From the IMG/VR virus record IMGVR_UViG_2609459774_000004: a stretch of 13,911 bases of DNA; one strand, written 5' to 3'. This document shows positions 1 to 13,911 of the stretch, piece by piece (position 1 is the first letter of the stretch; every line of letters begins with the position of its first letter). Below the pieces are notes generated by a model. It made no database searches and was not told the origin of the DNA. It saw only the letters and a program-made list of their open reading frames with translations. The DNA comes from a virus (Duplodnaviria; Heunggongvirae; Uroviricota; Caudoviricetes). Made by a program: the position numbers and the translations under genes.

Positions 1-19
1 CTATTTGATAAATATTAAA

Positions 20-1315
20 TTAATTTTTCATTGCTTCGTTATGGGGCATGGTTGGGGCAAACTCGCTTAACTGTGTATTTAACAAAGCTACCTGTGCATT
101 ATTGTTTTCAGACATCCATTTTCCGTATACCTGAAATACCATTTGCGCATCTGCATGGCCCATCTGGTTTGCTATAAATGCCGGGTTAGCACCAGCTGTC
201 AGCGACCAGCAGGCATAAGTATGTCTCGACTGATATGATTTTCGATGGCGGAGTCCGGCACGTTTTATCGCTGCGTCCCACATCTGCCTTATTGAGTCAA
301 CGGTAAAATGGTCACCATAATTTTTTACTCTCGCTGACACTTCAGGTTGAAAAACAAAGGTGCATTTTTGTTTTTCTGTTCTGCCATACTCTCTGAGGTG
401 AACATCAATGATATGCTCTTTGCTCAGTCTCGTTAATGTCATCTGACTCCGGAGAGCGTCGATTGCTGGCTTAATAAGATGAATGACCCGATTGGTTCCC
501 GCCTGTGTTTTTGGTACCGTGAAACGGTCTTTTGCTAAATTTCTCCTGATCATCATTGTTCCATTTTTCAGATCTATGTCCTCCCATCCAAGTGCACACA
601 GCTCACCAGGGCGAACTCCAGTATAAACAGAAACACACCATAAATTTTTTGCTTGCTGATTTCTGCACGCATCGATAAGACGGATAAATTCTTCCCGCGA
701 AAGAGGATCCGGAATGGTTCTTGATTCCTTTAATGGCGAGATCCCCTTAAACGGATTATCTGCCAGGTAACCGTTATCAACACCAAACTGGAACACGGCG
801 TTAAGATTTGTCATGTAATTATTTACAGTTACAGCCGATCTCCCTGGTTGTGTAACAATATAGTTACTTTTGGGGATCTGGTATCCAGTCAGTAACTCTT
901 TACGAACCTCCAGTAATTTTTCTTTATTAATCGATGAGGCAAGATTTTTTTCACCGATTATGCTCAGGATATTTTTGATGACGGCACGGTATGTGTTGAG
1001 TGATGTTTTGGCGACTTCAGTTTCTTTCAGTGCCAGAAATTTTTCAGCCAGTTCTTTTATGGTTAAATCTTGTCGGGCCTCACCAAATTTTTCCAGATTG
1101 CGTGAGGAGGGAAACTGTTTTGCATAGTCGAAAACACCAGTTTTTATTGCGTAACAAACAGAGGAGCGTAGTTCACCTGCAACGCGCCTGTTTTTTGCTG
1201 TGTCAGGAACCCCCAGATTTTCCCTGACTCTTACGTCTTTATAAACAAACCAGATACGTAATTTCCCTCCATGGTTTTCCACGCCTGTCGGATATTTCAT
1301 TTCAACTTCTCTCAT
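20..1315 (-). CDS. Tyrosine-type phage integrase (site-specific recombinase), 431 aa
   Basis: Long minus-strand ORF from the track. C-terminal region carries the tyrosine-recombinase catalytic pattern (HRKSYQSRHTY with H-x-x-R, downstream Tyr in QVYGKW). Sits at the prophage end next to an excisionase-like gene. The second Met (MKYPTG, start near 1300) is an alternative start. Confidence 0.9.
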   Translation of the reverse strand: MREVEMKYPTGVENHGGKLRIWFVYKDVRVRENLGVPDTAKNRRVAGELRSSVCYAIKTGVFDYAKQFPSSRNLEKFGEARQDLTIKELAEKFLALKETEVAKTSLNTYRAVIKNILSIIGEKNLASSINKEKLLEVRKELLTGYQIPKSNYIVTQPGRSAVTVNNYMTNLNAVFQFGVDNGYLADNPFKGISPLKESRTIPDPLSREEFIRLIDACRNQQAKNLWCVSVYTGVRPGELCALGWEDIDLKNGTMMIRRNLAKDRFTVPKTQAGTNRVIHLIKPAIDALRSQMTLTRLSKEHIIDVHLREYGRTEKQKCTFVFQPEVSARVKNYGDHFTVDSIRQMWDAAIKRAGLRHRKSYQSRHTYACWSLTAGANPAFIANQMGHADAQMVFQVYGKWMSENNNAQVALLNTQLSEFAPTMPHNEAMKN

Positions 1316-1334
1316 TAGTTAGTGTGGCTTTTAG

Positions 1335-1586
1335 TCAAGTAAGATGACGTCTTGGTCTCGCTGATGCCTGGCGCTCAATCCAGCGATCAATTTCTTCCAG
1401 GTTGTAAAAGCATGGACTGTTATCCCATGGCATACCGTCATGAGCGACATGCTTATATTCCCTTCCTTCCATAAACGATTTTTCCCGGGCCTTTTTTAAC
1501 GTACCTTTTTTTATTCCTTTCAGCGCAATTAACTGCTCTTCGGATACCCATTTGCCGGGAGAGACAATCATGATTACTTCGCTCAT
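1335..1586 (-). CDS. Excisionase-like small DNA-binding protein (83 aa)
   Basis: Small basic ORF immediately upstream of and co-oriented with the integrase (19-nt gap), the classic xis-int arrangement. Function inferred from position and size only. Confidence 0.55.
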   Translation of the reverse strand: MSEVIMIVSPGKWVSEEQLIALKGIKKGTLKKAREKSFMEGREYKHVAHDGMPWDNSPCFYNLEEIDRWIERQASARPRRHLT

Positions 1587-1658
1587 CGATTTCTTTATCT
1601 CTTACATCAGACGAGCGCCGGTTGCAGAATACCAGTCACAACCGGCGACAGTTGAACA

Positions 1659-4130
1659 TTAAGAATCAGCCTGACTCGGGATCAGTTTTTGCCAGATAAC
1701 TGAAACGTATTTTGCCTGGTAACGGGCGTCATCAAGTGCATTATGGCGCTCACCTTCGAATGGAATAGCCGTTCTGGCATCGAAGTCTATGGCTTTCCCC
1801 AGCTCAACGATTGTGCGTACATCGCGATCGTTGTAGTAACGCCACGGGCAGGGGATCCCCTGCCGTTCGTATGAACGGCGCAAAATCGTGTTGTCGAAGT
1901 TGGCTCCATTTCCCCAAACCTGAACAAAAAATTCACCGGAGTTTTCGTCGATAAATTCTCGCAATTGTAACAGTGCATCATCTAACGGGATTTCATCGGT
2001 CATAATGGCAGATTGCGCTTCGCGTGATTGCTTAAGCCACCATTTAATGGTGTCCCGATCAATGACTCCGCCAGCAGTTTCCAGATCGATAGTCTTACTA
2101 AATTCCGGTCCCATATCTCCGGTTTGCGGATCGAAAAATATTGCACCTATTGAGATGATCGGGGCATCAGGATTTTTTCCCATGGTTTCAAGGTCGATCA
2201 TTAGATGGTCACACGTCCTGCTGGTGGATGTGATTTCGTGATGACCGTTCACCTTAATTGGGTGATCTGCCGTCTCGCCAGTTTCATTATCGCTATTGTG
2301 ATGCTGATTGCCGCCAGTGTTCTCCTTGTGTGGATGTTCAGCGCCTTCCATTTCCTCCGGATCATCTTCCTGAACTTCAACCTGATACTCTTCATCGAAT
2401 GTTTCTTGGTATGTTGCGTCGCCCATCACCGCGCCACAATCAGGGCAGTTGCCGCCGCCGGTCTGACCGCAGGCGGTGCAGACTTTTTCCACTTCCTGTT
2501 GCGCTACTGGTTCAGGCTGTTTCGTTTCTGGCTCGTTTTGTAACGCATTTGGACTGTTTTGTTCCGCTTTTTGGTAGTTCCGTTCCGATTCATGCTGGTT
2601 CTGGTTCACAGAATCGCGGGTCTGGAGCCCCTTAACCCATTTCGGATCATTCGGGTCACTAATCCCTTCAACAAATTCACCACGTGATGCAGCAAGCAAC
2701 TTATCGGCGTCAGGCTGGCTGATATTGGCTGCCTGCATAATTTTGTTTACTTCGTCAGCGGTAACTTTTATCGGCTCTGGTTGTTCTGAATCTTCAGCGG
2801 TATCTACATTTTGCGGTAAGCCCGTGTATGTGCCATTTTTTCGGGCAAAATATTCTTCTTTTGTGATTTCAGTGGCGCCAGCAGCCAGTGCCTTATCCAG
2901 ACCAGAGAGTTTGTTTGCGCGACCGTATTTTTCTCCGTCCTTATCTGCGAAGAGGAAATAGAACGGCCCCTCACGCTCTACAGATGGTTCAGCTTCCGGC
3001 GCGGTTTCATTTTTTGGGATATCAGATACCTCAGTTTCCACTGCATCAGTTTGTGTTTCTGATGACTGGAGAACATCAACAGTGCCCAGGTCTGTTTCTT
3101 CATTCTCAAACACGCCCTTTGTCGTCAGGTATTCGCAGATATATTTGTTCAGTGCTACGGGATCTTTGTGAATGTCGATCGGACGCTCACGGACAAGGCC
3201 AAAAATAGTTTGGCGGTCGTAGCGAAGGGCATCAGGCTGTTTGCGCATTGATGCCGAGATACGCTTCCAGTCTTCGCGGTCGTTGTCGATAACTTCTTTT
3301 TTTGCCCAGCGATGGATGCTGCCGTCAATGTTTCCGGCATCCACATCACTAGGCCAGAGAGCGTAGGCCAGTTCGTCATCCAGTGTTTTCCATGTCTGCT
3401 TGTATTCGCGATGAATGGCAGCAATGACCGGGCTGATTTTTCCTGTTGAATTTTCAGTGTACTGTTGATTGGCTCTGGCGCGGGCGAGATCAACAACAGA
3501 CGTGTATTTTCCGGTTTCCTTGCGTTCACCTTCGCGACGTTTTTTCCAGATGCGCATCTCTGCCTGAATTTCGGGCCATTTAGCACCAGGAATACATTTA
3601 TGCTTAACCCACCCAATGGCGTGCAACTTAAGCTCCGGATACATGGCGTTAACTTCTGGCATTTTCATCAACGCTTCAACGATATGTCCGTCGAATGTTG
3701 CCATGTCTTCCTGCAACAATTCCTGTGCGCTAATAACCATATCAACGGTGATGTTTTCACATGTGTCGAACTTAACCATGACAGCGTTCTGTACTTCAGG
3801 GGCCAGCTTGTCAAAAGTGACGTTCATCGGATCGGATTCAGTCTCAACCGGGACAAAAGAAGCAGACTCCTCATCCCAGCGGTTTTCCTGCATATATTCA
3901 GCATCCCATGAATCGAGGGCAGGGCGGGGTATGCCAGGTTTATCCTCGCAGACAATAAATTTATAAGCGCAGTCCTGAGCAGCCGGATAATGTTCCAGGA
4001 ATTGCCAGTGAAATTTTGCTCGAGCACGGCGTTCGTCGCCAGCTTCAATGGCTGTGGCTACAGCCACAGCGCCTTCTTCCCTTGTTGCCAGTTCGTCAGG
4101 AATAGCGGCGCAAATAAAGACTTTACTCAT
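1659..4130 (-). CDS. Exonuclease VIII-like protein with C-terminal DEDDh (DnaQ-like) 3'-5' exonuclease domain; 823 aa from the ATG at 4130 (frame open to TTG at 4166)
   Basis: Track ORF 1659..4166. The ATG at 4128-4130 (MSKVF) has a GAGG Shine-Dalgarno 9 nt upstream. The C-terminus shows three DEDDh motifs (LMIDLETMG; VWGNGANFDNTIL; HNALDDARYQAKY). The centre has a CxxC-x10-CxxC ribbon (CTACGQTGGGNCPDCG) flanked by acidic and His-rich low-complexity linkers. By position this corresponds to the gene that K-12 Qin retains only as the IS2-truncated ydfE remnant. Confidence 0.8.
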   Translation of the reverse strand: MSKVFICAAIPDELATREEGAVAVATAIEAGDERRARAKFHWQFLEHYPAAQDCAYKFIVCEDKPGIPRPALDSWDAEYMQENRWDEESASFVPVETESDPMNVTFDKLAPEVQNAVMVKFDTCENITVDMVISAQELLQEDMATFDGHIVEALMKMPEVNAMYPELKLHAIGWVKHKCIPGAKWPEIQAEMRIWKKRREGERKETGKYTSVVDLARARANQQYTENSTGKISPVIAAIHREYKQTWKTLDDELAYALWPSDVDAGNIDGSIHRWAKKEVIDNDREDWKRISASMRKQPDALRYDRQTIFGLVRERPIDIHKDPVALNKYICEYLTTKGVFENEETDLGTVDVLQSSETQTDAVETEVSDIPKNETAPEAEPSVEREGPFYFLFADKDGEKYGRANKLSGLDKALAAGATEITKEEYFARKNGTYTGLPQNVDTAEDSEQPEPIKVTADEVNKIMQAANISQPDADKLLAASRGEFVEGISDPNDPKWVKGLQTRDSVNQNQHESERNYQKAEQNSPNALQNEPETKQPEPVAQQEVEKVCTACGQTGGGNCPDCGAVMGDATYQETFDEEYQVEVQEDDPEEMEGAEHPHKENTGGNQHHNSDNETGETADHPIKVNGHHEITSTSRTCDHLMIDLETMGKNPDAPIISIGAIFFDPQTGDMGPEFSKTIDLETAGGVIDRDTIKWWLKQSREAQSAIMTDEIPLDDALLQLREFIDENSGEFFVQVWGNGANFDNTILRRSYERQGIPCPWRYYNDRDVRTIVELGKAIDFDARTAIPFEGERHNALDDARYQAKYVSVIWQKLIPSQADS

Positions 4131-4222
4131 TTGTTTTAACCTCATGACAGATTTAAGGATGAACAAATCCCTGCCATTGCTGGCATATAAGAATGAAACC
4201 GGATATTTATTACGGAACTGTT

Positions 4223-4414
4223 TTAAAGACCTGCCGGGATTTCGATATTATCCTGGTGAATAACTTTATCGACCGGGTAACAGTTACCGGGAATTTTCTG
4301 TTCGGTTGCTGCAGTCATACACTCCTGCATTGTCCTGTGAACACTGACTGCAATATCAACTGGCTCTCCGGAAACAAGAAAAACTGTCAGAACAAGCACA
4401 AATGCTGAATTCAT
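4223..4414 (-). CDS. ydfD: YdfD-like small lysis protein with N-terminal hydrophobic (transmembrane/signal-like) segment, 63 aa
   Basis: Internal Met of track ORF 4223..4468 (MNSAFVLVLTVFLVSG...). Its ATG overlaps the dicB stop as ATGA, implying translational coupling. Length (63 aa), N-terminal hydrophobic helix and position directly downstream of dicB match Qin ydfD. Confidence 0.65.
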   Translation of the reverse strand: MNSAFVLVLTVFLVSGEPVDIAVSVHRTMQECMTAATEQKIPGNCYPVDKVIHQDNIEIPAGL

Positions 4415-4599
4415 TGTGCACATCCTTTTGGCATCAGACGTAAACGAGCCAGCATTGAAACAATGCATATTTTATTTAATAGCTCCCGTTCTTGTTTTCT
4501 CTTGTTAATGGCATCTTCAGTAAATACTGGGTTACTGATAGTGACACCAATTTCAAAACAACCTTCAGACGTATTAACGTTTGGTAATAACGTTTTCAT
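4411..4599 (-). CDS. dicB: DicB cell-division inhibitor (MinC-dependent), 62 aa
   Basis: Internal Met of track ORF 4411..4704: MKTLLPNVNTSEGCFEIGVTISNPVFTEDAINKRKQERELLNKICIVSMLARLRLMPKGCAQ. GAGGA Shine-Dalgarno 7 nt upstream. Length, sequence and position downstream of the DicF sequence fit DicB of the Qin dicB operon. Confidence 0.8.
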   Translation of the reverse strand: MKTLLPNVNTSEGCFEIGVTISNPVFTEDAINKRKQERELLNKICIVSMLARLRLMPKGCAQ

Positions 4600-4768
4600 T
4601 ATCGCGTCCTCAACAATGAATTTTGTGATGCAGTGCCTGGTGCCTCCAGGTGATGTTAACCAGTTAACAATTAACGCCGGATACAGAGAATCCACCCATA
4701 ACACTGTTTTTGGTTTTAACTGTTCCGCGTGCGCTCAGCCGCATTCACCACATCACAAAATTCACTTT

Positions 4769-4826
4769 AAAAAGGGCGGCAGAGCAGTCACGGAGTAAAA
4801 CTGATACCGCCAAACGTCACCAGAAA
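4769..4826 (-). ncRNA. dicF: DicF small regulatory RNA (53-nt body 4774..4826 plus U-tail)
   Basis: Minus-strand sequence UUUCUGGUGACGUUUGGCGGUAUCAGUUUUACUCCGUGACUGCUCUGCCGCCC followed by UUUUU matches DicF as I recall it, including a GC-rich 3' hairpin and U-tract. Located between ydfC and dicB as in Qin. Confidence 0.75.
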
Positions 4827-5166
4827 ATTGATAACAGAGGGCGTTGCAGCGGGGTTGTCACTTAAGCGTATGGTCAACCTGACAACCCGGTGTCCTCAAC
4901 GGGGAAGGAATACCCCCGCCATACTTACCGCCGCGCCATTTCGCGGGTTGCCACAACCGGAAGCGCACGGTCGACGAAAATTTAACGACAGGCTATCTAT
5001 GAACCAGCTACCTCGCCGTGCGCTTTCGCGTTATGGTCTGACTTTTCAGGGAAATATCCTTTCAGTAAACTGTCAGTTCCGGATGCGCACCCGTGTCCGG
5101 CGCACGCACTCCACCTCACCCGTGGAGAACTCCTTAATTACTAACCTTAGCTTTGTTGATTAGCTA

Positions 5167-5385
5167 CTAACGCGGGTATGTAATCATTCTGGCAATGCTT
5201 AATGCCGCTGCTTTTTCCAGATTGGTGATATCCTGCTCCAGAGCGGACAGATTTTCAGCCTGCTTAGCCCTGGCTTCATTAGCCCATTTCAGATCCTGCG
5301 CTGCATTAATTTTCTGGCGCATCCACTCATAAAGTTCATCATCGGTATAGTCTGGCGCGATGATGACGGGTTCTCGTTTCTGCAT
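5167..5385 (-). CDS. ydfC: YdfC-like small protein, 72 aa
   Basis: Track ORF with AGGA Shine-Dalgarno 6 nt upstream of the ATG. Length and position (third gene of the leftward operon after ydfA/ydfB) match Qin ydfC. Function unknown. Confidence 0.6.
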   Translation of the reverse strand: MQKREPVIIAPDYTDDELYEWMRQKINAAQDLKWANEARAKQAENLSALEQDITNLEKAAALSIARMITYPR

Positions 5386-5414
5386 ACTGATTCCTCGCGG
5401 TGCTGTTTCGCTTA

Positions 5415-5543
5415 TCAGCCGTTAGATTTTGCCGAACTGGAAAGCGCGTGTTTAAACTCACTGAAGCTGAGAGCTTCTTCGCCTTCGGCAAGGCCTTCGA
5501 AGTATTCTTCGTAAGCCTTTTCCATGATTGTGTCGAAATCCAT
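5415..5543 (-). CDS. ydfB: YdfB-like small acidic protein, 42 aa (below the ORF-track size cutoff)
   Basis: Hand-translated: MDFDTIMEKAYEEYFEGLAEGEEALSFSEFKHALSSSAKSNG. GGTGA Shine-Dalgarno about 5 nt upstream of the ATG, which sits 2 nt after the ydfA stop. The 42-aa length matches Qin ydfB. It competes with the overlapping basic track ORF 5339..5548. Confidence 0.5.
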   Translation of the reverse strand: MDFDTIMEKAYEEYFEGLAEGEEALSFSEFKHALSSSAKSNG

Positions 5544-5544
5544 A

Positions 5545-5700
5545 TCACTCACCTGAGTTTCTTTCCAGCCAGCGACGGGCACCATTTTCGGTTTTAAACG
5601 TTTTGCTTTTGGTATACGTCATTGCGGTGAACGTGCCGTCCTGGTTTGGAAACACGCCGTACACCAGAGATTCGTTGTTGCCAAGATCGATAGTATCCAT
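5545..5700 (-). CDS. ydfA: YdfA-like small protein, 51 aa
   Basis: Internal Met of track ORF 5545..5754 (MDTIDLGNNESLVYGVF...) with AGGT 5 nt upstream. First gene downstream of the pL-like promoter. Length 51 aa matches Qin ydfA. Confidence 0.6.
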   Translation of the reverse strand: MDTIDLGNNESLVYGVFPNQDGTFTAMTYTKSKTFKTENGARRWLERNSGE

Positions 5701-5777
5701 GCTGACCTCATTTCCCCTTAACGCCGGGGTAGCGGAACTGTTTGCTGAGAACACCGTGCGGTGTCTTGATGGAAAGT

Positions 5778-5833
5778 AATTTAGAATAACCTAACATGAT
5801 AGGCAAGTGTTTTTTGTTAGATTGGTCTAACAA
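5778..5833 (-). promoter_or_regulatory. Leftward early promoter candidate with two operator-like palindromes (OL)
   Basis: Minus-strand -35 TTGCCT (5801-5806) and -10 TAAATT (5778-5783) with 17-nt spacer. Perfect palindrome TTGTTAGA-ttgg-TCTAACAA at 5814-5833. Second site TTAGGTTATTCTAA (minus-strand reading of 5781-5794) repeats the 6277-6292 site at OR. Confidence 0.4.
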
Positions 5834-5868
5834 AAAGAGTGGGCGCAACTAATCACTTGAAAAGAATG

Positions 5869-6276
5869 TTATTTTATTGATTTATTTTTACGCGCTTTAA
5901 GCATTTCTTCGAAGAGTTTGTTGAAGTTTTCTACTCTTGCGCGCATTTCAGACAGCAAGGCTTCCTGCTCGGAAGATGGAAGAGCATCGAATAATTCGAT
6001 CAATTCTTTGTGGTTGGGAGTTAGCTCTGTTTCCACATGAAGTTCTTGTGCAGGCACTGGTGCCTTGTCTTCGTCACCAAACATTAGCCATGTAGGTGAG
6101 CACTTCAGAGCATCCGCTAAAGCAAACAATCGTTTTCCGACTGGCTGGGTTTCGTCTCTTTCCCATTGTGAAATTGTGACGTGAGCAACTCCAGCGAGGC
6201 GCGCAGCTTCTCGTTGTGTTAAGCGTAATTCTTTTCGTCGCGCCAGAACTCGCTGGCCTAGGGTTCTTGTATCCAT
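5869..6276 (-). CDS. dicA: DicA-type HTH (XRE family) prophage repressor, 135 aa, no S24 peptidase domain
   Basis: N-terminal HTH (LRLTQREAARLAGVAHVTISQWE). Divergent from a Cro-like gene across a 77-bp operator region. The 135-aa length matches DicA. C-terminal half is a short helical tail with no LexA-like Ser/Lys cleavage module. Confidence 0.85.
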   Translation of the reverse strand: MDTRTLGQRVLARRKELRLTQREAARLAGVAHVTISQWERDETQPVGKRLFALADALKCSPTWLMFGDEDKAPVPAQELHVETELTPNHKELIELFDALPSSEQEALLSEMRARVENFNKLFEEMLKARKNKSIK

Positions 6277-6353
6277 AGTTAGGTAATTCTAATTTTTCTT
6301 GACTTAGGTATCCCGCGCACAATAATGTTAGAAAAGTCTAACAAGAGGGGGCT
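6277..6353. promoter_or_regulatory. Divergent promoter/operator region between dicA and dicC (OR)
   Basis: Rightward -35 TTGACT (6299-6304), 17-nt spacer, -10 ATAATG (6322-6327). Palindrome TGTTAGA-aaag-TCTAACA at 6326-6343 overlaps the -10/+1. Second site AGTTAGGTAATTCTAA at 6277-6292 abuts the dicA start. Confidence 0.5.
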
Positions 6354-6356
6354 TTG

Positions 6357-6584
6357 ATGCTTAAAGTTGACGCAATTACTTTTTTTGGCAGCAAAACAAA
6401 GCTTGCCAATGCCGCAGGGGTGAGACTGGCAAGTGTTGCTGCTTGGGGGATACTGGTTCCTGAAGGTCGCGCGATGCGTCTACAGGAGGCATCTGGCGGG
6501 GAGCTTCAGTATGATCCCAAAGTTTATGATGAATATCGTAAGACGAAGCGGGCGGGGCGGTTGAACAATGAAAATCACTCCTGA
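6357..6584 (+). CDS. dicC: DicC / Cro-like (YdaS-family) small DNA-binding protein
   Basis: Track ORF 6354..6584 (76 aa from TTG). The ATG at 6357 has GAGGGGG 6 nt upstream. Protein MLKVDAITFFGSKTKLANAAGVRLASVAAWG... has a Cro/YdaS-like HTH pattern and is divergent from the repressor. Confidence 0.75.
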   Translation: MLKVDAITFFGSKTKLANAAGVRLASVAAWGILVPEGRAMRLQEASGGELQYDPKVYDEYRKTKRAGRLNNENHS

Positions 6585-6885
6585 ACAGGCTCGTGAGGCT
6601 CTGGATGCCTGGATATGTCGACCAGGAATGACACAGGAGCAGGCGACGATATTAATCACTGAAGCATTCTGGGCTTTGAAAGAGCGCCCGAACATCGATG
6701 TTCAGCGTGTCACATATGAAGGTGGCGCGATTGATCAGCGAGCGCTTGGCGTTAATCGAGTGAAGATATTTGAACGCTGGAAGGCTATCGACACCAGGGA
6801 TAAGCGTGAAAAGTTCACGGCGCTAGTGCCTGCAATTATGGAGGCTACAGATTATTCCTTACCTCGTGAGTTTTGCCTTTGCTGA
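6568..6885 (+). CDS. YdaT-like (CII-analog family) protein, 105 aa, probably C-terminally truncated
   Basis: Overlaps the dicC 3' end. Shares the ...ERWKAIDTRDKREKF..LVPAIMEA...LPRE pattern I recall from Rac YdaT (about 140 aa). Ends early and overlaps the next ORF by 20 nt in another frame. Confidence 0.55.
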   Translation: MKITPEQAREALDAWICRPGMTQEQATILITEAFWALKERPNIDVQRVTYEGGAIDQRALGVNRVKIFERWKAIDTRDKREKFTALVPAIMEATDYSLPREFCLC

Positions 6886-7333
6886 TTACTCCAGGTCTGC
6901 GGCAAGTAAGGCTCGCTGTGAGCATTGTTCAGGTACGGGATTTTATAATGTATTGCGCGAAGTGGTGAAACACTACAGACGCGGGGAATCTGTAATCAAG
7001 GAAGAATGGGTGAAGGAACTATGTCAGCATTGCCATGGTAAGGGCGAAGCCAGCACAGCGTGCAGAGGGTGTAAGGGTAAAGGGATTGTTCTGGATGAAA
7101 AAAGAACCCGGTTTCATGGCGTACCGGTATATAAGATTTGTGGGCGTTGTAATGGAAACCGGTTTAGTCGTTTACCGACCACGCTGGCACGACGTCATGT
7201 CCAGAAGCTGGTACCAGACCTGACCGATTATCAGTGGTATAAGGGGTATGCGGACGTCATTGGTAAACTGGTAACAAAGTGCTGGCAGGAAGAAGCATAC
7301 GCGGAAGCGCAATTGAGGAAGGTGACGAGATAA
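6866..7333 (+). CDS. Cys-rich zinc-finger ORF (four CxxCxGxG/R DnaJ-like repeats), 155 aa; possibly the 3' remnant of a Q-like late antiterminator
   Basis: Repeats CEHCSGTG, CQHCHGKG, CRGCKGKG, CGRCNGNR. Only a GTG start with no Shine-Dalgarno and no internal ATG; upstream in-frame stop at 6824-6826. It occupies the position of quuQ relative to cspF/cspB/essQ in Qin. Could equally be annotated as a pseudogene. Confidence 0.4.
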   Translation: MSFAFADYSRSAASKARCEHCSGTGFYNVLREVVKHYRRGESVIKEEWVKELCQHCHGKGEASTACRGCKGKGIVLDEKRTRFHGVPVYKICGRCNGNRFSRLPTTLARRHVQKLVPDLTDYQWYKGYADVIGKLVTKCWQEEAYAEAQLRKVTR

Positions 7334-7364
7334 ATGATTTTTGCTGAAGATGGCGACATGATGT

Positions 7365-7393
7365 TTGCATTTTTCAAAAAATATGGATAAAAT
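7365..7393 (+). promoter_or_regulatory. Near-consensus sigma-70 promoter (TTGCAT-17-TAAAAT), candidate late promoter (pR'-like)
   Basis: -35 TTGCAT at 7365-7370, 17-nt spacer, -10 TAAAAT at 7388-7393, about 30 nt after the Cys-rich ORF stop, where lambdoid late promoters sit. Confidence 0.45.
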
Positions 7394-7437
7394 TTTTTCA
7401 ACGATGGGCTTTGTATACCCGACGTTAAGAAAAAGTA

Positions 7438-7463
7438 GAAAACCTGCTGATGAGCGGGTTTTG
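7438..7463 (+). terminator. Hairpin with U-rich tail about 45 nt downstream of the candidate late promoter (tR'-like)
   Basis: AAAACCUGC-ugauga-GCGGGUUUU: 6-bp core stem with one G-U pair, extended by A/U pairs, followed by a G then more Us. Weak as an intrinsic terminator. Confidence 0.35.
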
Positions 7464-7754
7464 TGCTTTAAATGGGGCAATGGTAATGTTGAATCTCATC
7501 CCGGGACTCATGTCTGTTAACTTATTATTTAGCTGGTGACTTGGTTATTTGCCTGATGTTTAAAATGTTTTCTTCCAGTACAATGTCCCTAAACACAATG
7601 AGTCTGCTTATTATATTATTAGCAGAGCTATTACGGCCAAAGTACAGCATAAGCTTTTAAAGCCAATCAACCAGTCATCAAGACAGACGGGGTTATTCAT
7701 AAAAACTCTCCATGTGTGATCCGATGGGGCCTGAAATTAAAGCTTTAATATAGC

Positions 7755-7967
7755 TCATGAAAGGTAAACATTGGCAGCTGAAGGGCCACGCAGACCATTT
7801 ATCCGGCAAAATTCCACGCGTAATCCGGTGGTAATTTCTTCTGCATCGCGGAGATTGAGCGCTGAAACATGAAGCTGGACATCGATACGACCATCGGATG
7901 GGGTGATAAGACCCTTGCCGCTTTTGCCGTCAAAGGTTTTGACAATTCCTGTCATTTTACGGGACAA
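7755..7967 (-). CDS. cspF: Cold-shock-domain protein, CspF/CspH subfamily, 70 aa
   Basis: [27 protein letters not shown]...[20 protein letters not shown] matches the CspF/CspH pattern I recall. Divergent from a cspB-like gene as in Qin. cspF versus cspH cannot be resolved by eye. Confidence 0.85.
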
Positions 7968-8267
7968 AAAAATTCCTTAATACTGATAACTTGGCGCACT
8001 ATACACACGTTCCTGAAGAAAGCTATAGTTTTTTGATGGGGTTGAAGATGGCTGGATGTCTAAAATAAACATTGCTTCATATGTTCAACTATGCGTTAAT
8101 GATTGCGTCGGTTTGAAGAACAGACGATATACGAAGTAGTTTACTAAAGCAGTTCTCATTTCAGGTGTTATTCACTTATTCCTTCTTTGAGTCTCTCCAA
8201 TTAAGTACGAAGTCGTTTCTGTTATGCAAACCATTTATGCCGAAAGGCTCAAGTTAAGGAATGTAGA
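7968..8267. promoter_or_regulatory. Divergent promoter and long 5'-UTR region between the cspF-like and cspB-like genes
   Basis: 300-bp AT-rich intergenic region between divergent cold-shock genes; cspA-family genes typically have long 5' leaders. No specific element mapped. Confidence 0.35.
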
Positions 8268-8483
8268 ATGTCAAATAAAATGACTGGTTTAGTAAAATGG
8301 TTTAACGCTGATAAAGGTTTCGGCTTTATTTCTCCTGTTGATGGTAGTAAAGATGTGTTTGTGCATTTTTCTGCGATTCAGAATGATAATTATCGAACCT
8401 TATTTGAAGGTCAAAAGGTTACCTTCTCTATAGAGAGTGGTGCTAAAGGTCCTGCAGCAGCAAATGTCATCATTACTGATTAA
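8268..8483 (+). CDS. cspB: Cold-shock protein CspB-like, 71 aa
   Basis: [67 protein letters not shown]... carries the RNP1/RNP2 motifs of the CspA family and the CspB-type variable residues. AAGGAA Shine-Dalgarno upstream. Confidence 0.9.
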
Positions 8484-8764
8484 AATTCATCGCTCGTCTG
8501 TATACGATAACGAAGAAGGCTGATGCCTGAGTAGAGATACGGACAGAGTAGTGAATATTGGATCTCTTTAATAAAAAGTAAGGAGGTCCAATACATGAAA
8601 CAATGGCTAGCATATTTGGCAAAATCTTAATCAGGAAAAGTATGCTAACCATTGTGGTGAAGTGCAGGTTTGCTGCATGAATAGTTTTACAGCAGAAGCT
8701 AACTGCTGGCATGGCAAAACAAAGTGCGTAAGTGGATGACTCCCACAAAAAGCACCACAATCTC

Positions 8765-8790
8765 AAACCCGCTCAGGCGGGTTTTTTATT
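8765..8790 (+). terminator. Rho-independent terminator (possibly bidirectional)
   Basis: AAACCCGC-ucag-GCGGGUUUUUUAUU: 8-bp GC-rich stem, tetraloop, U6 tail, preceded by an A-tract. Lies downstream of cspB on the plus strand and of the 56-aa zinc-ribbon gene on the minus strand. Confidence 0.6.
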
Positions 8791-8846
8791 ATCTGCTTTA
8801 AATATATTATTAAAATATAAAAAATACTTGTTACTAATAAAATCAA

Positions 8847-9017
8847 TCAGGCTACAGCTTTAAGATTTGTCTGGAATACTTTGTTGCAATGAGGGCAGAT
8901 CAAAAGGGCACCTTTTTGTACTCTTGAAAAACTGTGTTCTGACTCTTGGGTGCAGTTTGGGCAGGAACATTTAACGAGATAATTACGGCGTGATTTTGAG
9001 TTTTTACGTTCTGACAT
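8847..9017 (-). CDS. Small zinc-ribbon protein (C-x-C-x2-C ... C-x2-C), 56 aa; YnfU/YmcF-like
   Basis: Internal Met of track ORF 8847..9068: MSERKNSKSRRNYLVKCSCPNCTQESEHSFSRVQKGALLICPHCNKVFQTNLKAVA. AGGAA Shine-Dalgarno 6 nt upstream. Family name from memory of csp-adjacent small proteins in K-12; not verified. Confidence 0.5.
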   Translation of the reverse strand: MSERKNSKSRRNYLVKCSCPNCTQESEHSFSRVQKGALLICPHCNKVFQTNLKAVA

Positions 9018-9236
9018 AGGCTTTTCCTGTATAAATGGCCGTATACAGTACACTAAATATGAAAACATTTCTCGTATTATTATTTTATATATGACTTTCT
9101 TTCAAAATAATTACCCACATTTTTAATGTGTATGTTTTTTTAGCGCCGTTGAGAACAACGTGTGCTGTCAAAACTACCCCGTAGACTCCGATCTTTTCAA
9201 ACATATTGCACCATCCGTGTACATCGGGGTGAGGAT

Positions 9237-9452
9237 ATGAAATCAATGGATAAGTTAACAACAGGTGTTGCCTATGGCACATCGGCGGGTAATGCTGGTT
9301 TCTGGGCATTGCAGTTACTCGATAAAGTAACTCCGTCACAGTGGGCTGCAATCGGTGTGCTGGGTAGCCTGGTTTTTGGCCTGCTGACGTATCTGACAAA
9401 TCTTTATTTCAAGATTAAAGAAGACAGGCGTAAGGCTGCGAGAGGAGAGTAA
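9237..9452 (+). CDS. essQ: Class II holin (S21-type pinholin) with dual-start motif MKSM, 71 aa
   Basis: Internal Met of track ORF 9162..9452 with GAGGA Shine-Dalgarno. [29 protein letters not shown]...[13 protein letters not shown] resembles EssD/EssQ and phage 21 S. Met1 and Met4 give the antiholin/holin dual start. Symbol assigned by synteny. Confidence 0.85.
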
Positions 9453-9456
9453 TCCA

Positions 9457-9764
9457 ATGACTCAAGACTATGAACTGGTTGTGAAAGGAGTCCGTAATTT
9501 TGAGAATAAAGTTACGGTAACTGTAGCCTTACAGGACAAAGAACGCTTTGACGGTGAAATTTTTGACCTGGATGTCGCCATGGACCGTGTTGAAGGAGCT
9601 GCGCTGGAGTTTTATGAGGCAGCAGCCAGAAGGAGCGTCCGGCAAGTCTTCCTGGAAGTAGCAGAAAAATTGTCAGAAAAAGTTGAGTCTTATCTGCAGC
9701 ATCAATACTCCTTTAAGATTGAAAATCCTGCCAATAAGCACGAGCGTCCTCATCATAAATATCT

Positions 9765-9768
<4 letters not shown>
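9457..9768 (+). CDS. ydfR: YdfR-like protein (DUF1327-type), 103 aa, inside the lysis cassette
   Basis: AGGAGAG Shine-Dalgarno. 103 aa between holin and endolysin, as ydfR is in Qin. Its stop overlaps the endolysin start (ATGA). Confidence 0.75.
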
Positions 9769-10792
<1,024 letters not shown>

Positions 10793-11155
10793 GGTAATAT
10801 TAAATCGGAACATTTACATCGCGGAATGTAAAATTTAAATAAAAAGGACTCTTCCATGAGCCAAAATTCCTGAAATCTTAAGGGTAAGATAAAAGGTCTT
10901 AATCAGAATGACACGTTTTATTAATAAATAAAGCTATTCTTTCATTGCTGTGTTTTTCTTTACAAAAGTAATCCTTGCTATGGGTGGTTAATCATGAGTT
11001 AATGGTGTTCTGGTTTGTTACAAATTTATCTGAAGCAGTCATTGTTATAATTTTATTATTTGTACCTCTTGAGATTTCCTTGTTGGTTTTTCTCTCTGAT
11101 ATTTTTTTTTCGGACCATTCTGCCCAAGGGCTAATTTCTTCAAAAGGTAATAATT

Positions 11156-11368
11156 ATGTCTAACAAAATGACTGGTTTAGTGAAATGGTTTAACCCTGAA
11201 AAAGGTTTTGGTTTCATCACGCCGAAAGATGGCAGCAAAGATGTGTTTGTCCATTTCTCAGCAATTCAGAGCAACGATTTCAAAACATTAACTGAGAATC
11301 AGGAAGTTGAATTTGGTATTGAGAACGGACCTAAAGGTCCTGCCGCTGTTCATGTAGTGGCGCTTTGA
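11156..11368 (+). CDS. cspI: Cold-shock protein CspI, 70 aa
   Basis: [70 protein letters not shown] matches CspI of Qin as I recall it. Long AT-rich 5' leader upstream. Confidence 0.9.
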
Positions 11369-11567
11369 GGTAGACAATATTACAAACCATATTCACTTTA
11401 GATGCCCGTGTTGTCATGGTTCCCAGTATAGAACATCATCTTTTGATGTTTCTGACATGAATCCTTTCGGGGCAAAATGTATCTTTTGTAAATCAATGAT
11501 GATTACATTTGATAATATTTCACAATACTTAAATGTTAGCCATCTGTCGTTAGATTTAAGAAAGTGA
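11358..11567 (+). other. Candidate second small zinc-ribbon ORF (paralog of the 8847..9017 protein) with no canonical start upstream of its Cys motifs
   Basis: Hand-translated frame: ...HFRCPCCHGSQYRTSSFDVSDMNPFGAKCIFCKSMMITFDNISQYLNVSHLSLDLRK*. Cys spacing (C-x-CC ... C-x2-C, with SF in the linker) parallels the 56-aa protein. The only ATG is at 11457, after the first Cys cluster. The stop is 8 nt before the terminator hairpin. May be a degenerate paralog or use a non-canonical start. Confidence 0.25.
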
Positions 11568-11574
11568 AAATGAA

Positions 11575-11597
11575 GGCTCCTTCGGGAGCTTTTTTGC
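11575..11597 (+). terminator. Rho-independent terminator after the cspI unit
   Basis: GGCUCC-uucg-GGAGCU followed by UUUUU: 5-6 bp stem with UUCG tetraloop and U-tract. Confidence 0.5.
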
Positions 11598-11638
11598 TTA
11601 GTGTCTAGTCGATGGATACTCACATATTACGGTAACAT

Positions 11639-11869
11639 ATGAAAAAAATAATAGTTTTTTTTAACTCTGAACCAGCAATGGTAGTGCCAGTGATGACCGG
11701 AGTTAACACCATCATGCGTGAATACCCAAATGGCGAAACAACACACCTCACTGTAATGGCTGCAGGGTTTCCATCTCTGACCGGAGATCATAAAGTCATT
11801 TATGTAGCAGCGGATCGACATGTAACTTCAGAAGAAATTCTGGAAGCAGCAATGAGACTCTTGAATTGA
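11639..11869 (+). CDS. ynfN: YnfN/YmcE-like small protein, 76 aa
   Basis: Track ORF. Lies between cspI and gnsB, where ynfN lies in Qin (ymcE-gnsA is the paralogous pair). Weak Shine-Dalgarno. Assigned by position and size only. Confidence 0.55.
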   Translation: MKKIIVFFNSEPAMVVPVMTGVNTIMREYPNGETTHLTVMAAGFPSLTGDHKVIYVAADRHVTSEEILEAAMRLLN

Positions 11870-12041
11870 TTTGATTCTAATGCATTGATAATAAATGATA
11901 ATCATCTTTATCTGTTTGTGTGAAATTTAGACCGTCGTATGTTGATTATTGCGATGTTTCATCTTATCTTTTATACGTTTGCTCCATATAATTGACACTA
12001 CTGTGTACCAGGACAGTCATAACAGACTAAAAGAGGAAATG

Positions 12042-12215
12042 ATGAACATTGAAGAGTTAAAAACAAAAACAGAAGCAGATATTTCTGAATATATAACAAA
12101 AAAAATCATTGAGCTTAAGAAAAAGACCGGGAAAGAAGTTACCAGTATCCAGTTTACTGCACGGGAAAAAATGACTGGTCTTGAAAGCTATGATATCAAG
12201 ATTGATTTAATCTAG
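12042..12215 (+). CDS. gnsB: GnsA/GnsB-family protein, 57 aa
   Basis: Internal start of track ORF 11949..12215. AGAGGAA Shine-Dalgarno then ATGATG. MNIEELKTKTEADISEYITKKIIELKKKTGKEVTSIQFTAREKMTGLESYDIKIDLI matches the Gns family pattern MNIEELKK...FTAREKMTGLESYD. Confidence 0.8.
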   Translation: MNIEELKTKTEADISEYITKKIIELKKKTGKEVTSIQFTAREKMTGLESYDIKIDLI

Positions 12216-13105: not shown

Positions 13106-13348
13106 GGCTAGTTTTTGCATTTCCATGGCGGCGGCAGCATGTTTGGTAATTTATTGATAATTAAAAGTTATTTATCTTTTCACCTGTACAATATTTTTTT
13201 CTCCCTGTCATTAGACCAGTTTACAATTAATTGAAATATATAAATAAACATGATTTTTAGACTGGCCCCCTGAATCTCCAGACAACCAGTATCACTTAAA
13301 TAAGTGATAGTCTTAATACTAGTTTTTAGACTAGTCATTGGAGAACAG

Positions 13349-13714
13349 ATGATTGATGTCTTAGGGCCGGAGAAACGCAGACGGCGTACCACACAGGAAA
13401 AGATCGCAATTGTTCAGCAGAGCTTTGAACCGGGGATGACGGTCTCCCTCGTTGCCCGGCAACATGGTGTAGCAGCCAGCCAGTTATTTCTCTGGCGTAA
13501 GCAATACCAGGAAGGAAGTCTTACTGCTGTCGCCGCCGGAGAACAGGTTGTTCCTGCCTCTGAACTTGCTGCCGCCATGAAGCAGATTAAAGAACTCCAG
13601 CGCCTGCTCGGCAAGAAAACGATGGAAAATGAACTCCTCAAAGAAGCCGTTGAATATGGACGGGCAAAAAAGTGGATAGCGCACGCGCCCTTATTGCCCG
13701 GGGATGGGGAGTAA
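13349..13714 (+). CDS. insC: IS2 transposase OrfA (InsC), 121 aa
   Basis: Internal ATG of track ORF 13304..13714. [56 protein letters not shown]... is the IS2 InsC HTH protein. Confidence 0.9.
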
Positions 13715-13911
13715 GCTTAGTCAGCCGTTGTCTCCGGGTGTCGCGTGCGCAGTTGCACGTCATTCTCAGACGAACCGATGACTGGATGGATGGCCGCCGC
13801 AGTCGTCACACTGATGATACGGATGTGCTTCTCCGTATACACCATGTTATCGGAGAGCTGCCCACGTATGGTTATCGTCGGGTATGGGCGCTGCTTCGCA
13901 GACAGGCAGAA
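13666..13911 (+). CDS. insD: IS2 transposase OrfB (InsD), N-terminal part in the -1 frame, truncated by the window end
   Basis: Slippery heptamer A-AAA-AAG at 13666-13672 near the end of insC. The -1 frame reads [82 protein letters not shown] to the last base of the window. Confidence 0.75.

What the first reader, a model, noticed from the sequence alone, without database searches (positions are those of the whole stretch)
6568..7333. Apparent deletion junction fusing a truncated YdaT/CII-like gene to a start-less Q-position ORF
The YdaT-like ORF is only 105 aa and overlaps by 20 nt, in a different frame, a 155-aa ORF with only a GTG start, no Shine-Dalgarno and no internal ATG. Immediately after it come a late-type promoter and the cspF/cspB/holin block. 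Everything a lambdoid prophage normally carries between cII and Q is absent. Compared with K-12 Qin as I recall it, that includes the flxA, relBE, hokD, rem and ydfU region. This points to a single large internal deletion that inactivated late-gene control and removed the toxin-antitoxin loci.
Basis: partly seen in the sequence, partly recalled or inferred. Interest (0 to 1): 0.55.

Follow-up and report, generated by a model that had tools for sequence, protein, structure and literature searches.

The report
Qin prophage deletion at recurrent breakpoint
This is a real 9-12 kb internal deletion in a Qin-type defective prophage of E. coli that fuses a truncated regulator gene to a headless late-gene activator gene. 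Its left end falls on exactly the same nucleotide as at least ten other independent deletions, including the one that made ydfX in E. coli K-12.

Summary
The window equals JNPW01000001.1 (GCA_000703925.1), a Qin-type prophage next to rspB.

- **Left arm.** Window 1-6847 matches the E. coli E94 prophage at 99.97%. It ends after codon 93 of a 173-aa YdaT-family gene.
- **Right arm.** From 6848 the sequence is ydfT/quuQ from codon 90 of 250.
- **What is missing.** 11,586 bp of E94 are absent (about 9.2 kb without two E94 insertion sequences). This holds the replication genes, flxA, ydfV, relBE, hokD, rem and ydfU.
- **The join.** It shares only the dinucleotide TA, and no insertion sequence lies at it.
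- **Distribution.** The exact chimeric protein occurs in three independent sequencing runs. The junction is in 0 of 5426 complete E. coli genomes and 0 of 50,697 phage records.

The unexpected result concerns the left endpoint, GGAGGCTA|. It is shared to the nucleotide by K-12's ydfX/ydfW junction and by at least nine other junctions read as DNA. At least 16 protein tail variants also start there. Nearly all partner sites carry TA before the join, with G enriched at -4 and -5. All events are same-strand deletions.

So the allele itself is ordinary prophage decay. The recurrent breakpoint, at the hinge after YdaT's DNA-binding domain, is not explained.

The parts
5869..6276 (-). DicA/CI-type repressor gene (135 aa). 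This is an immunity allele different from K-12 dicA.
   Evidence: Pfam HTH_3, E 1.5e-14. It is 100% identical to the E94 gene WP_000381212.1. Window 5949-6446 is diverged from K-12.
6299..6326 (+). Promoter-like site upstream of the cro/dicC-like gene, a candidate early rightward promoter.
   Evidence: TTGACT-16-AATAAT, 10 of 12. This is a consensus match only.
6354..6584 (+). Cro/DicC-like gene (76 aa), intact.
   Evidence: Pfam P22_Cro, E 5e-12. Annotated as a Cro/CI family regulator in E94 and 55989.
6568..6847 (+). Codons 1-93 of the YdaT-family (CII-equivalent) gene. This is the helix-turn-helix POU-type DNA-binding domain only.
   Evidence: 99.97% collinear with E94 up to 6847. The intact homologue is 173 aa, with Pfam YdaT_toxin spanning residues 59-131. 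In CP-933P YdaT the POU domain is residues 1-96 and the hinge is 96-99 (PMC9986795).
6846..6847 (.). Deletion junction. The dinucleotide TA is shared by both parental sequences: ydaT ..GGAGGCTA|TCCGG and ydfT ..CCGGTTA|CAGATT.
   Evidence: Three-way alignment. The BLAST arms overlap at 6843-6847 with one mismatch.
6848..6885 (+). Out-of-frame tail of the chimeric 105-aa ORF (TDYSLPREFCLC plus stop). It is read from ydfT DNA in the wrong frame.
   Evidence: The exact 105-aa product is found in 4 assemblies.
6848..7333 (+). 3' remnant of ydfT/quuQ (Q antiterminator), codons 90-250. The longest ORF starts at GTG 6866, which is Val96.
   Evidence: 99.8% identical to E94 ydfT from nt 268. Full-length YdfT (from L012) aligns over residues 1-120 and 160-250 to lambda Q of PDB 7UBM. 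Pfam Antiterm covers residues 60-147 of the remnant.
7364..7393 (+). Weak promoter-like match downstream of the Q remnant, a possible late promoter.
   Evidence: TTTGCA-18-TAAAAT, 9 of 12. The number of matches in the region is not above chance.
7755..10792 (.). Context downstream: cspF (-), cspB (+), ynfU (-), and the holin, ydfR, lysozyme and rzpQ lysis genes. These are intact and collinear with K-12 Qin.
   Evidence: ORFs. 98.9% identity to K-12 over 6843-12213. Annotation of strain 26561 and K-12.

Best explanation
**What it is (shown).** The interval holds the scar of one internal deletion in a Qin-type cryptic lambdoid prophage integrated next to rspB.

- The deletion joined codon 93 of the YdaT-family (CII-equivalent) gene to codon 90 of the Q antiterminator gene ydfT/quuQ.
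- It removed about 9-12 kb. This held the rest of ydaT, the replication-region genes, a 3.3 kb ISNCY element carrying flxA, ydfV and relBE, then hokD, rem, ydfU and the first 89 codons of ydfT.

**Consequences (inferred).**

- The early operon now encodes Cro/DicC plus a monomeric YdaT DNA-binding domain with a 12-residue nonsense tail.
- The Q remnant lacks its N-terminal third, has no ATG and no ribosome-binding site, and is out of frame with the upstream ORF. Q-dependent late transcription should therefore be lost.

**How it arose (shown).** It arose by illegitimate recombination, not by homologous, integrase-mediated or IS-mediated recombination. The parents share only TA at the join, and no mobile element is present there. 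The left endpoint is a recurrent one. The nucleotide after GGAGGCTA is the endpoint of many independent deletions in this prophage family, including K-12 ydfX/ydfW.

**Most likely mechanism (inferred, about 0.4).** Breaks form preferentially at GGNTA|N sites and are rejoined through the TA dinucleotide. Deletions that start at the hinge after the YdaT DNA-binding domain, and that remove the replication and late-control functions, are then preferentially kept.

**Main alternative (about 0.3).** Polymerase template switching from a nascent ...GGNTA 3' end.
For: **The deletion.**
- The left arm (1-6847) is 99.97% identical to E94, and the right arm starts at E94 ydfT nt 268. E94 has 11,586 bp between the two points.
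- K-12 has 4,381 bp between them.
- The intact YdaT-family protein is 173 aa, and its Pfam domain crosses the break.
- YdfT is 250 aa and is a lambda-Q homologue.

**The junction is real but rare.**
- The exact 105-aa chimera is in GCA_000703925.1 and in three independent sequencing runs.
- It is absent from 5426 complete E. coli genomes and 50,697 phage records.

**The hot spot.**
- Eleven different right-hand sequences, read as DNA, follow GGAGGCTA|.
- At least 16 distinct protein tails start at residue 93/94. There are 7 at residue 62/63 and 3 or fewer at any other position.
- The site also serves as the right-hand partner in two further deletions.

**The signature.**
- TA precedes the join in the source sequence of 19 of 20 partner sites.
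- G at -4 is found in 22 of 30 sites, against 0.29 among all 748 TA sites in the region (p 9e-7). G at -5 is in 18 of 30, and C at +2 is in 16 of 30.
- There is no extended similarity between partners: identity at -12..-3 is 0.29 against a background of 0.25.
- All partner sites lie on the same strand, 0.8-10 kb downstream.

**Against annealing as the driver.**
- The window junction ignores a 6-nt match (ATCCGG) one nucleotide away.
- Position -3 is not enriched for the matching base.
Against: - No enzyme with this specificity was identified.
- The GGNTA|NC motif was derived from the same sites it is scored on.
- The motif does not explain why codon 93 is used far more often than about 50 equally good sites nearby. 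Selection or local structure must contribute.
- Only a weak hairpin abuts the site (z -1.8).
- Independence of the events is inferred from their different right-hand sequences, not from a phylogeny.
- Protein clusters and IMG/VR contigs are not a random sample of strains.
- Loss of Q function and expression of the truncated YdaT were not tested.
- Whether the window allele came directly from an intact ancestor or through a K-12-like ydfX junction cannot be resolved. There are no informative SNPs between 6462 and 7444.
Confidence: 0.85

Rival explanations
1. Two-step origin. The strain first carried a K-12-like ydfX/ydfW junction. A second deletion, again starting at that junction, then removed ydfW through ydfT codon 89.
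For: K-12 and the window share the left arm to the nucleotide and even the next base (GGAGGCTAC). From a K-12-like parent the microhomology would be 3 nt (TAC) rather than 2. One set of junction-bearing contigs (L005, L006) has K-12-type alleles on both sides.
Against: The window's own flanks are almost identical to E94, which has an uninterrupted hot-spot sequence, and not to K-12. The second event would still need the same nucleotide as its endpoint, so this does not remove the need for a hot spot.
Confidence: 0.2
2. Replication slippage or template switching. A nascent strand ending in ...GGNTA leaves its template at a pause site in ydaT and re-primes at a downstream GGNTA-like site.
For: All events are same-strand deletions. 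The terminal TA is always matched, and G at -4/-5 is often matched. A small hairpin (GCCTGCAATTATGGAGGC) ends right at the TA.
Against: Spans of 0.8-10 kb are long for slippage. A better 6-nt match one nucleotide away was not used. The base at -3 is not matched more than chance, and perfect GGCTA sites are not preferred. The hairpin is not significant.
Confidence: 0.3
3. IS-mediated or IS-excision-associated deletion. An insertion sequence once sat at the hot spot, made nested adjacent deletions, and was later lost.
For: Nested deletions with one fixed end are the classic signature of IS-adjacent deletion (from general knowledge). ydaT is often hit by insertion sequences: IS2, IS629 and an IS903-like element lie at other positions.
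Against: None of more than 150 intact or rearranged copies has an insertion sequence at this nucleotide. None of the right-hand sequences mapped onto reference prophage DNA is an IS end. The E94 insertion sequence lies 31 nt away, not at the junction.
Confidence: 0.04
4. The arrangement is native, or it is an assembly artefact.
For: All supporting assemblies are short-read assemblies.
Against: The same junction occurs in four independent assemblies, with unique sequence for 1-10 kb on both sides. Both genes are full length and far apart in relatives and in real phages. The Pfam domain and the lambda-Q alignment are cut at the join.
Confidence: 0.02
5. Recurrence reflects selection only. Endpoints arise at random, and only truncations right after the YdaT DNA-binding domain survive.
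For: The break lies at the POU-domain/hinge boundary (residues 96-99 in CP-933P YdaT). Ectopic expression of the Rac ydaS/ydaT genes is reported as toxic (titles and abstracts listed). The motif alone does not single out this site.
Against: Selection acts on codons, not on single nucleotides. Within residues 88-100 nearly all tails begin at one nucleotide, and the partner sites also carry TA.
Confidence: 0.08

Closest known systems
E. coli K-12 Qin prophage, ydfX/ydfW junction (b1568/b1567)
   Same: The left arm is the same and the left breakpoint is the same to the nucleotide (..ATGGAGGCTA|). The join also has TA microhomology. ydfX is likewise a YdaT-family gene cut after codon 93, with a short out-of-frame tail.
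   Different: In K-12 the right end lies inside the 3' part of an ISNCY transposase gene (ydfW is its remnant). K-12 therefore keeps flxA, ydfV, relBE, hokD, rem, ydfU and a full-length ydfT. The window lacks all of these and has a truncated ydfT.
Qin-type prophages with an uninterrupted hot-spot sequence in ydaT (E. coli E94, 55989), and phages Tritos, PhiR42_1 and HannyBb
   Same: The integrase, exonuclease, dicB, immunity region and first 93 ydaT codons are 99-100% identical to E94. Q is 99.4% identical to that of phages Tritos and PhiR42_1. The CII-like gene is 98% identical to that of phage HannyBb.
   Different: Those genomes carry the full 173-aa YdaT-family gene (interrupted by an insertion sequence in E94), the replication genes and a full-length Q. 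The window has none of the DNA in between.
YdaT(93)-YdfT(about 221) in-frame fusion allele (P0019; GCA_004277155.1 and two sequencing runs)
   Same: The left nucleotide is the same, the join is again at TA, and the right partner is again ydfT.
   Different: The right end lies about 400 bp further into ydfT (GGTATA|AGGGG). The fusion is in frame, leaving only the last 30 residues of Q.
Deletions with one fixed endpoint at a nick or break site. Examples are rolling-circle origin nick-site deletions, integrase-promoted deletions from att, and IS-adjacent deletions (recalled from the literature, not tested here).
   Same: These also form a family of nested deletions sharing one endpoint, with little or no homology at the join.
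   Different: No rolling-circle origin, att core or IS end is present. The Qin att core GAAATCCATAA is unrelated. The fixed site here lies inside a conserved coding sequence, and it can act as either the left or the right partner.

Membership tests
Qin-type cryptic lambdoid prophage | Integrated next to rspB, with int-xis-exonuclease-dicB-dicF-ydfABC-dicA/dicC on one side and cspF-cspB-lysis genes-cspI on the other. | tested here: met
   L004 shows rspB directly upstream of int. Gene order equals that of E94, 26561 and K-12. DicF RNA is at 4774-4825 and cspA-type leaders are present.
YdaT family (CII-equivalent regulators, Pfam PF06254) | Full-length protein with an N-terminal POU-type helix-turn-helix domain followed by a tetramerisation helix, scoring above the Pfam gathering score. 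| tested here: not met
   The window ORF scores 19.5 bits, below the cut-off of 21, and matches only profile positions 3-36 of 92. The intact relative scores 25.9 bits over residues 59-131. The window gene is therefore a truncated member. It keeps the part that corresponds to the DNA-binding domain.
Lambda-type Q antiterminator (Pfam PF03589; PDB 7UBM and 4MO1) | Complete protein: an N-terminal region of about 90-120 residues plus the C-terminal zinc-binding Antiterm domain, with its own start codon. | tested here: not met
   The C-terminal domain is present (E 4.7e-32). Full-length YdfT aligns with lambda Q from residue 1. The window keeps only codons 90-250. It has no ATG, and the first in-frame start is GTG at Val96 with no ribosome-binding site.
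Microhomology-type illegitimate recombination deletion | Both flanks collinear with a reference, 0-10 nt of shared sequence at the join, and no mobile element or recombinase site. | tested here: met
   There is a 2-nt TA overlap (5 nt with one mismatch), and the flanks are 99.8-100% identical to E94.
IS-mediated adjacent deletion | An IS end abuts the junction. | tested here: not met
   No IS sequence lies at 6800-6900. The nearest insertion sequence in the relative E94 is 31 nt to the right of the breakpoint, within the deleted part.
Integrase-promoted deletion at a (secondary) att site | The junction shares the prophage att core. | tested here: not met
   The att core deduced from the K-12 Qin ends is GAAATCCATAA. 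It is absent from both partner sites.
Serine-recombinase (invertase/resolvase) pseudo-site recombination | A 2-bp crossover dinucleotide. With a palindromic dinucleotide, inversions are expected as well as deletions. | tested here: inconclusive
   A TA core is present. However, all 24 partner sites that could be placed relative to an intact hot spot are in deletion orientation. The one inversion seen (P0009) is not at TA. Selection for deletions could bias this result.

The most novel reading that the evidence does not exclude
A sequence-preferring DNA break-and-join activity of unknown identity acts on the early and nin regions of Qin-type lambdoid prophages. It would cut after GGNTA and rejoin through the TA dinucleotide. 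It would produce families of nested same-strand deletions, with the hinge codon of ydaT as its dominant site. On this reading, the shape of cryptic prophages such as K-12 Qin is set by a specific enzymatic process and not by random decay.
Probability: 0.25. Interest if true: 0.7.

Novelty: new member of a known kind. Interest (0 to 1): 0.42.

Why it matters
On its own the allele is one more way in which a defective prophage loses replication, toxin-antitoxin and late-control genes. That matters only for strain typing, and for knowing that this strain lacks relBE and hokD of Qin.

The wider point is the shared endpoint. The textbook K-12 genes ydfX and ydfW, this allele and many others are products of deletions that all start at one nucleotide, at a protein-domain boundary. 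They also share a TA/GGNTA signature.

This gives a natural, sequence-defined hot spot for studying RecA-independent deletion formation in E. coli. It also gives a handle for separating mutational bias from selection in prophage domestication.

Tried and rejected
- **IS5/IS903 at the breakpoint.** The E94 match ends at the junction and an insertion sequence follows. The alignment shows the insertion sequence starts 31 nt further right. Rejected.
- **Junction in species-representative genomes.** There was no exact match. A looser pattern found only K-12-type junctions.
- **Metagenome scan.** It returned only two K-12-type contigs.
- **Integrase secondary-site recombination.** The att core is unrelated.
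- **Extended diverged homology between partner sites (relaxed homologous recombination).** None was found beyond GG.TA.
- **Hairpin-directed cleavage.** Only one weak hairpin abuts the site, and the other hot sites have none that stands out.
- **Matching GGNTA|NCG to a known enzyme.** Specificities recalled from memory did not fit. These were IS and transposon targets, the topoisomerase IA rule of C at -4, gyrase, RuvC/RusA, relaxase and Rep nick sites, invertase crossover sites, and restriction enzymes.
- **Literature searches for this hot spot or for TA-type deletion endpoints.** Nothing relevant was found.
- **One origin or two for the window junction, from flanking SNPs.** There are no informative sites near the join.
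Full report
**1. Where the window comes from.**
- The window is identical (13,911 of 13,911 bases) to JNPW01000001.1 positions 400,433-414,343 of assembly GCA_000703925.1, and it ends at the contig end.
- It is a Qin-type lambdoid prophage inserted next to rspB.
- The genes, in order, are: integrase, excisionase, a large exonuclease gene, dicB, DicF RNA, ydfA-C, a DicA-type repressor, a Cro/DicC-type gene, the finding, cspF, cspB, ynfU, holin, ydfR, lysozyme, rzpQ, cspI, small genes, and an IS3-family orfA.

**2. The observation.**
These are the 105-aa ORF at 6568-6885, the 155-aa GTG-initiated ORF at 6866-7333 with no internal Met, the 20-nt overlap in different frames, and the lack of a purine-rich stretch before the GTG.
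- The first ORF matches only the first third of Pfam YdaT_toxin, below threshold. The second holds a complete C-terminal Antiterm (Q) domain.
- The 'late promoter' is only a 9-of-12 consensus match and is not above chance.

**3. The breakpoint.**
- Against the annotated chromosome of E. coli E94, window 1-6847 aligns at 99.97%. Window 6843 onward aligns to ydfT starting at nt 263 of that gene.
- A three-way alignment gives these sequences:
  - ydaT parent: ...ATGGAGGCTA|TCCGGATTA...
  - ydfT parent: ...AAATCCGGTTA|CAGATTATT...
  - window: ...ATGGAGGCTA|CAGATTATT...
- The certain overlap is TA (GGCTA against GGTTA with one mismatch).
- The retained ydfT part starts at codon Gln90. GTG 6866 is Val96.
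- The YdaT frame runs on for 12 wrong-frame codons (TDYSLPREFCLC) to a stop.
- The intact YdaT-family protein of strain 55989 is 173 aa, and its Pfam domain (residues 59-131) crosses the break.
- Full-length YdfT (250 aa) aligns over residues 1-120 and 160-250 with lambda Q in PDB 7UBM. The remnant therefore lacks roughly the N-terminal 45% of the lambda Q fold.

**4. What was lost.**
- In E94 the two points are 11,586 bp apart. That is about 9.2 kb after subtracting an IS903-like and an IS10-like insertion specific to E94.
- The interval holds:
  - the 3' 80 codons of ydaT;
  - a 321-aa gene with no Pfam match;
  - genes for a DUF977 protein and a methyltransferase;
  - an ISNCY transposase gene with ydfW, flxA, ydfV, relB and relE;
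  - hokD, rem, a small ORF and ydfU (DUF968, with a weak HNH match);
  - ydfT codons 1-89.
- Against K-12 the missing stretch is 4,381 bp: ydfW, flxA, ydfV, relBE, hokD, rem, ydfU and the 5' end of ydfT.

**5. Real, rare, and not native.**
- The exact 105-aa chimera is encoded on contigs from GCA_000703925.1 and from three separate sequencing runs (ERR1010229, DRR223717, SRR1186782). All carry the same junction sequence.
- A 301-nt query across the junction is covered at 80% or more in 0 of 5426 complete E. coli genomes and 0 of 50,697 phage records.
- Real phages carry the two halves separately and full length. Q is in Tritos and PhiR42_1 at 99.4% identity, and the CII-like gene is in HannyBb at 98%.
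- The junction occurs on two haplotypes. The window and L007 carry the E94-type immunity allele. L005 and L006 carry the K-12-type dicA/dicC allele. There are no informative SNPs between 6462 and 7444, so later recombination and recurrence cannot be told apart.

**6. The unexpected part: a shared left endpoint.**
- K-12 ydfX diverges from the intact gene at the very same nucleotide (...GGAGGCTA|CCACTGG...). Its right partner lies inside the 3' part of an ISNCY transposase gene, of which ydfW is the remnant.
- Scans for the 22-mer ending at this nucleotide, together with look-ups of protein variants, gave eleven different right-hand sequences read as DNA. They join to:
  - ydfT codon 90 (the window);
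  - the ISNCY transposase gene (K-12);
  - two points in the small ORF upstream of ydfU;
  - the 5' part of ydfU;
  - the 3' part of a replication-region gene;
  - a point beyond flxA;
  - an unidentified gene about 2.5 kb downstream;
  - a point 1.4 kb downstream (P0001, the commonest variant, listed in 40 collection blocks);
  - the middle of the ISNCY transposase gene (P0002);
  - ydfT codon about 221, in frame (P0019).
- A protein search not tied to the break position returned 68 clusters. At least 16 distinct tails begin at residue 93/94, and every one has a codon 94 starting with A, as expected for a join after ...GCTA. There are 7 tails at residue 62/63, 3 each at residues 65 and 67, and 2 or fewer elsewhere.
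- The site is also the right-hand partner of two further deletions that remove DNA to its left.

**7. Signature of these events.**
- For 20 joins at this site whose right-hand parent could be found in reference loci, 19 have TA immediately before the join.
- The secondary left sites are also TA sites: GGCGTTA|A, GAAGATA|T, AAGGCTA|T and CGGGTTA|A.
- Several right sites are used repeatedly with different left sites: CCGGCTA|C, ACGGATA|C, GAGCCTA|A and CGACTA|Y.
- An all-against-all comparison of the fetched loci shows further TA-type deletions elsewhere in the early region, including the dicC-to-ydfU deletion of strain 26561. It also shows ordinary 4-11-nt microhomology deletions and many IS polymorphisms.
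- Across 30 sites, compared with all 748 TA sites of the region, the enrichments are:

| Position | Base | Sites | p |
|---|---|---|---|
| -4 | G | 22 of 30 | 9e-7 |
| -5 | G | 18 of 30 | 6e-4 |
| +2 | C | 16 of 30 | 8e-4 |
| -3 | any | no preference | - |

- There is no extended similarity between partners.
- All partners lie on the same strand and downstream.

**8. Mechanism.**
- *Shown:* illegitimate recombination at TA, no insertion sequence at the join, no att core, and a strongly recurrent endpoint.
- *Inferred:* I favour preferential breakage at GGNTA|N sites with rejoining through TA. Three observations point this way. The window join ignores a 6-nt match (ATCCGG) one nucleotide away. 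The base at -3 is not matched more than chance. Perfect GGCTA sites are not preferred.
- Template switching from a nascent ...GGNTA end remains a serious rival. It fits the same-strand-only pattern and a small hairpin that ends at the TA, although that hairpin is not significant.
- The motif does not single out codon 93 among about 50 equally good sites. Selection probably contributes.
- The break lies where CP-933P YdaT has the hinge between its DNA-binding POU domain (residues 1-96) and its tetramerisation helix (PMC9986795). Deletions from there also remove the replication functions.
- I could not match the motif to any enzyme specificity I know. That statement rests on memory, not on a test.

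**9. Consequences for this prophage (inferred).**
- Transcripts from the promoter-like site at 6299-6326 would encode Cro/DicC and a monomeric YdaT DNA-binding domain with a nonsense tail.
- The Q remnant has no usable start and lacks its N-terminal part, so Q-dependent reading into cspB and the lysis genes should be lost.
- The relBE and hokD toxin-antitoxin loci of Qin are absent.

**10. Verdict.**
- The finding is a correctly read deletion scar. As an allele it is an ordinary, rare variant of a well-known cryptic prophage.
- What raises its interest is that its left end coincides with a single-nucleotide deletion hot spot that also produced K-12 ydfX. The held literature I searched does not describe this hot spot.

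Noticed in passing
L001 (E. coli E94) 19032-22336; absent from the window: The block ISNCY transposase/ydfW-flxA-ydfV-relB-relE (about 3.27 kb) is bracketed by a 15-16-bp direct repeat, (C/A)GGAGAAGCAGGCTAT. It also has imperfect terminal inverted repeats (TGTTAACACCAAGC... and ...GCTTTGCGTTGACA). Many loci lack exactly this 3.29 kb. In those loci the single repeat is the ribosome-binding site and start of hokD. It looks like a transposon of the IS1202 group that brought relBE, flxA and ydfV into Qin as cargo.
   Followed up: partly
window 6300-6461 and 7445; L005, L006: The same ydaT-ydfT junction occurs on a second haplotype, with K-12-type dicA/dicC alleles on the left and a K-12-type base at 7445. 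This is either recombination after the deletion or a second occurrence of the same event.
   Followed up: partly
ydaT-family gene: window 6754 (after residue 62), 6769 (67), 6787 (73); residue 118 in intact relatives: These are secondary recurrent deletion endpoints, all at TA: GGCGTTA|A, GAAGATA|T, AAGGCTA|T and CGGGTTA|A. Several right-hand partner sites are reused with different left sites.
   Followed up: partly
L170-L176 (IMG/VR contigs); left partners correspond to roughly window 3950 and 4650 (approximate; located by matching the window's ORF translations, not by alignment): The hot spot also acts as the right-hand partner. Two different upstream sequences (GCCGGATA| and CAGGTTTA|) are joined to |TCCGGATTA. 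These deletions remove the immunity region and the 5' part of ydaT.
   Followed up: partly
window 5949-6446: The repressor and the 5' part of the cro-like gene are an immunity allele clearly different from K-12 dicA/dicC, too diverged for megablast. It is shared with E94, 55989 and many other strains.
   Followed up: no
window 7507-7764: A 258-bp segment between the Q remnant and cspF, holding ynfS, is present in some loci and absent in others. One boundary lies inside the last codons of cspF, so the cspF C-terminus differs between alleles.
   Followed up: no
window 13304-13911: An IS3-family orfA (HTH_Tnp_1) lies at the contig end. The structural half of the prophage is therefore not in the assembly contig, and whether it exists in this strain is unknown.
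   Followed up: no
protein P0009 (ENA contig): One variant joins ydaT codon 96 to the reverse complement of the 3' end of the cro/dicC-like gene. This is an inversion-type or inverted-duplication junction, and it is not at a TA site.
   Followed up: no
window 4774-4825 (-), 8107-8499 (+), 11009-11395 (+): Rfam finds DicF RNA and two cspA-type thermoregulator leaders (cspB and cspI), as expected for Qin.
   Followed up: no
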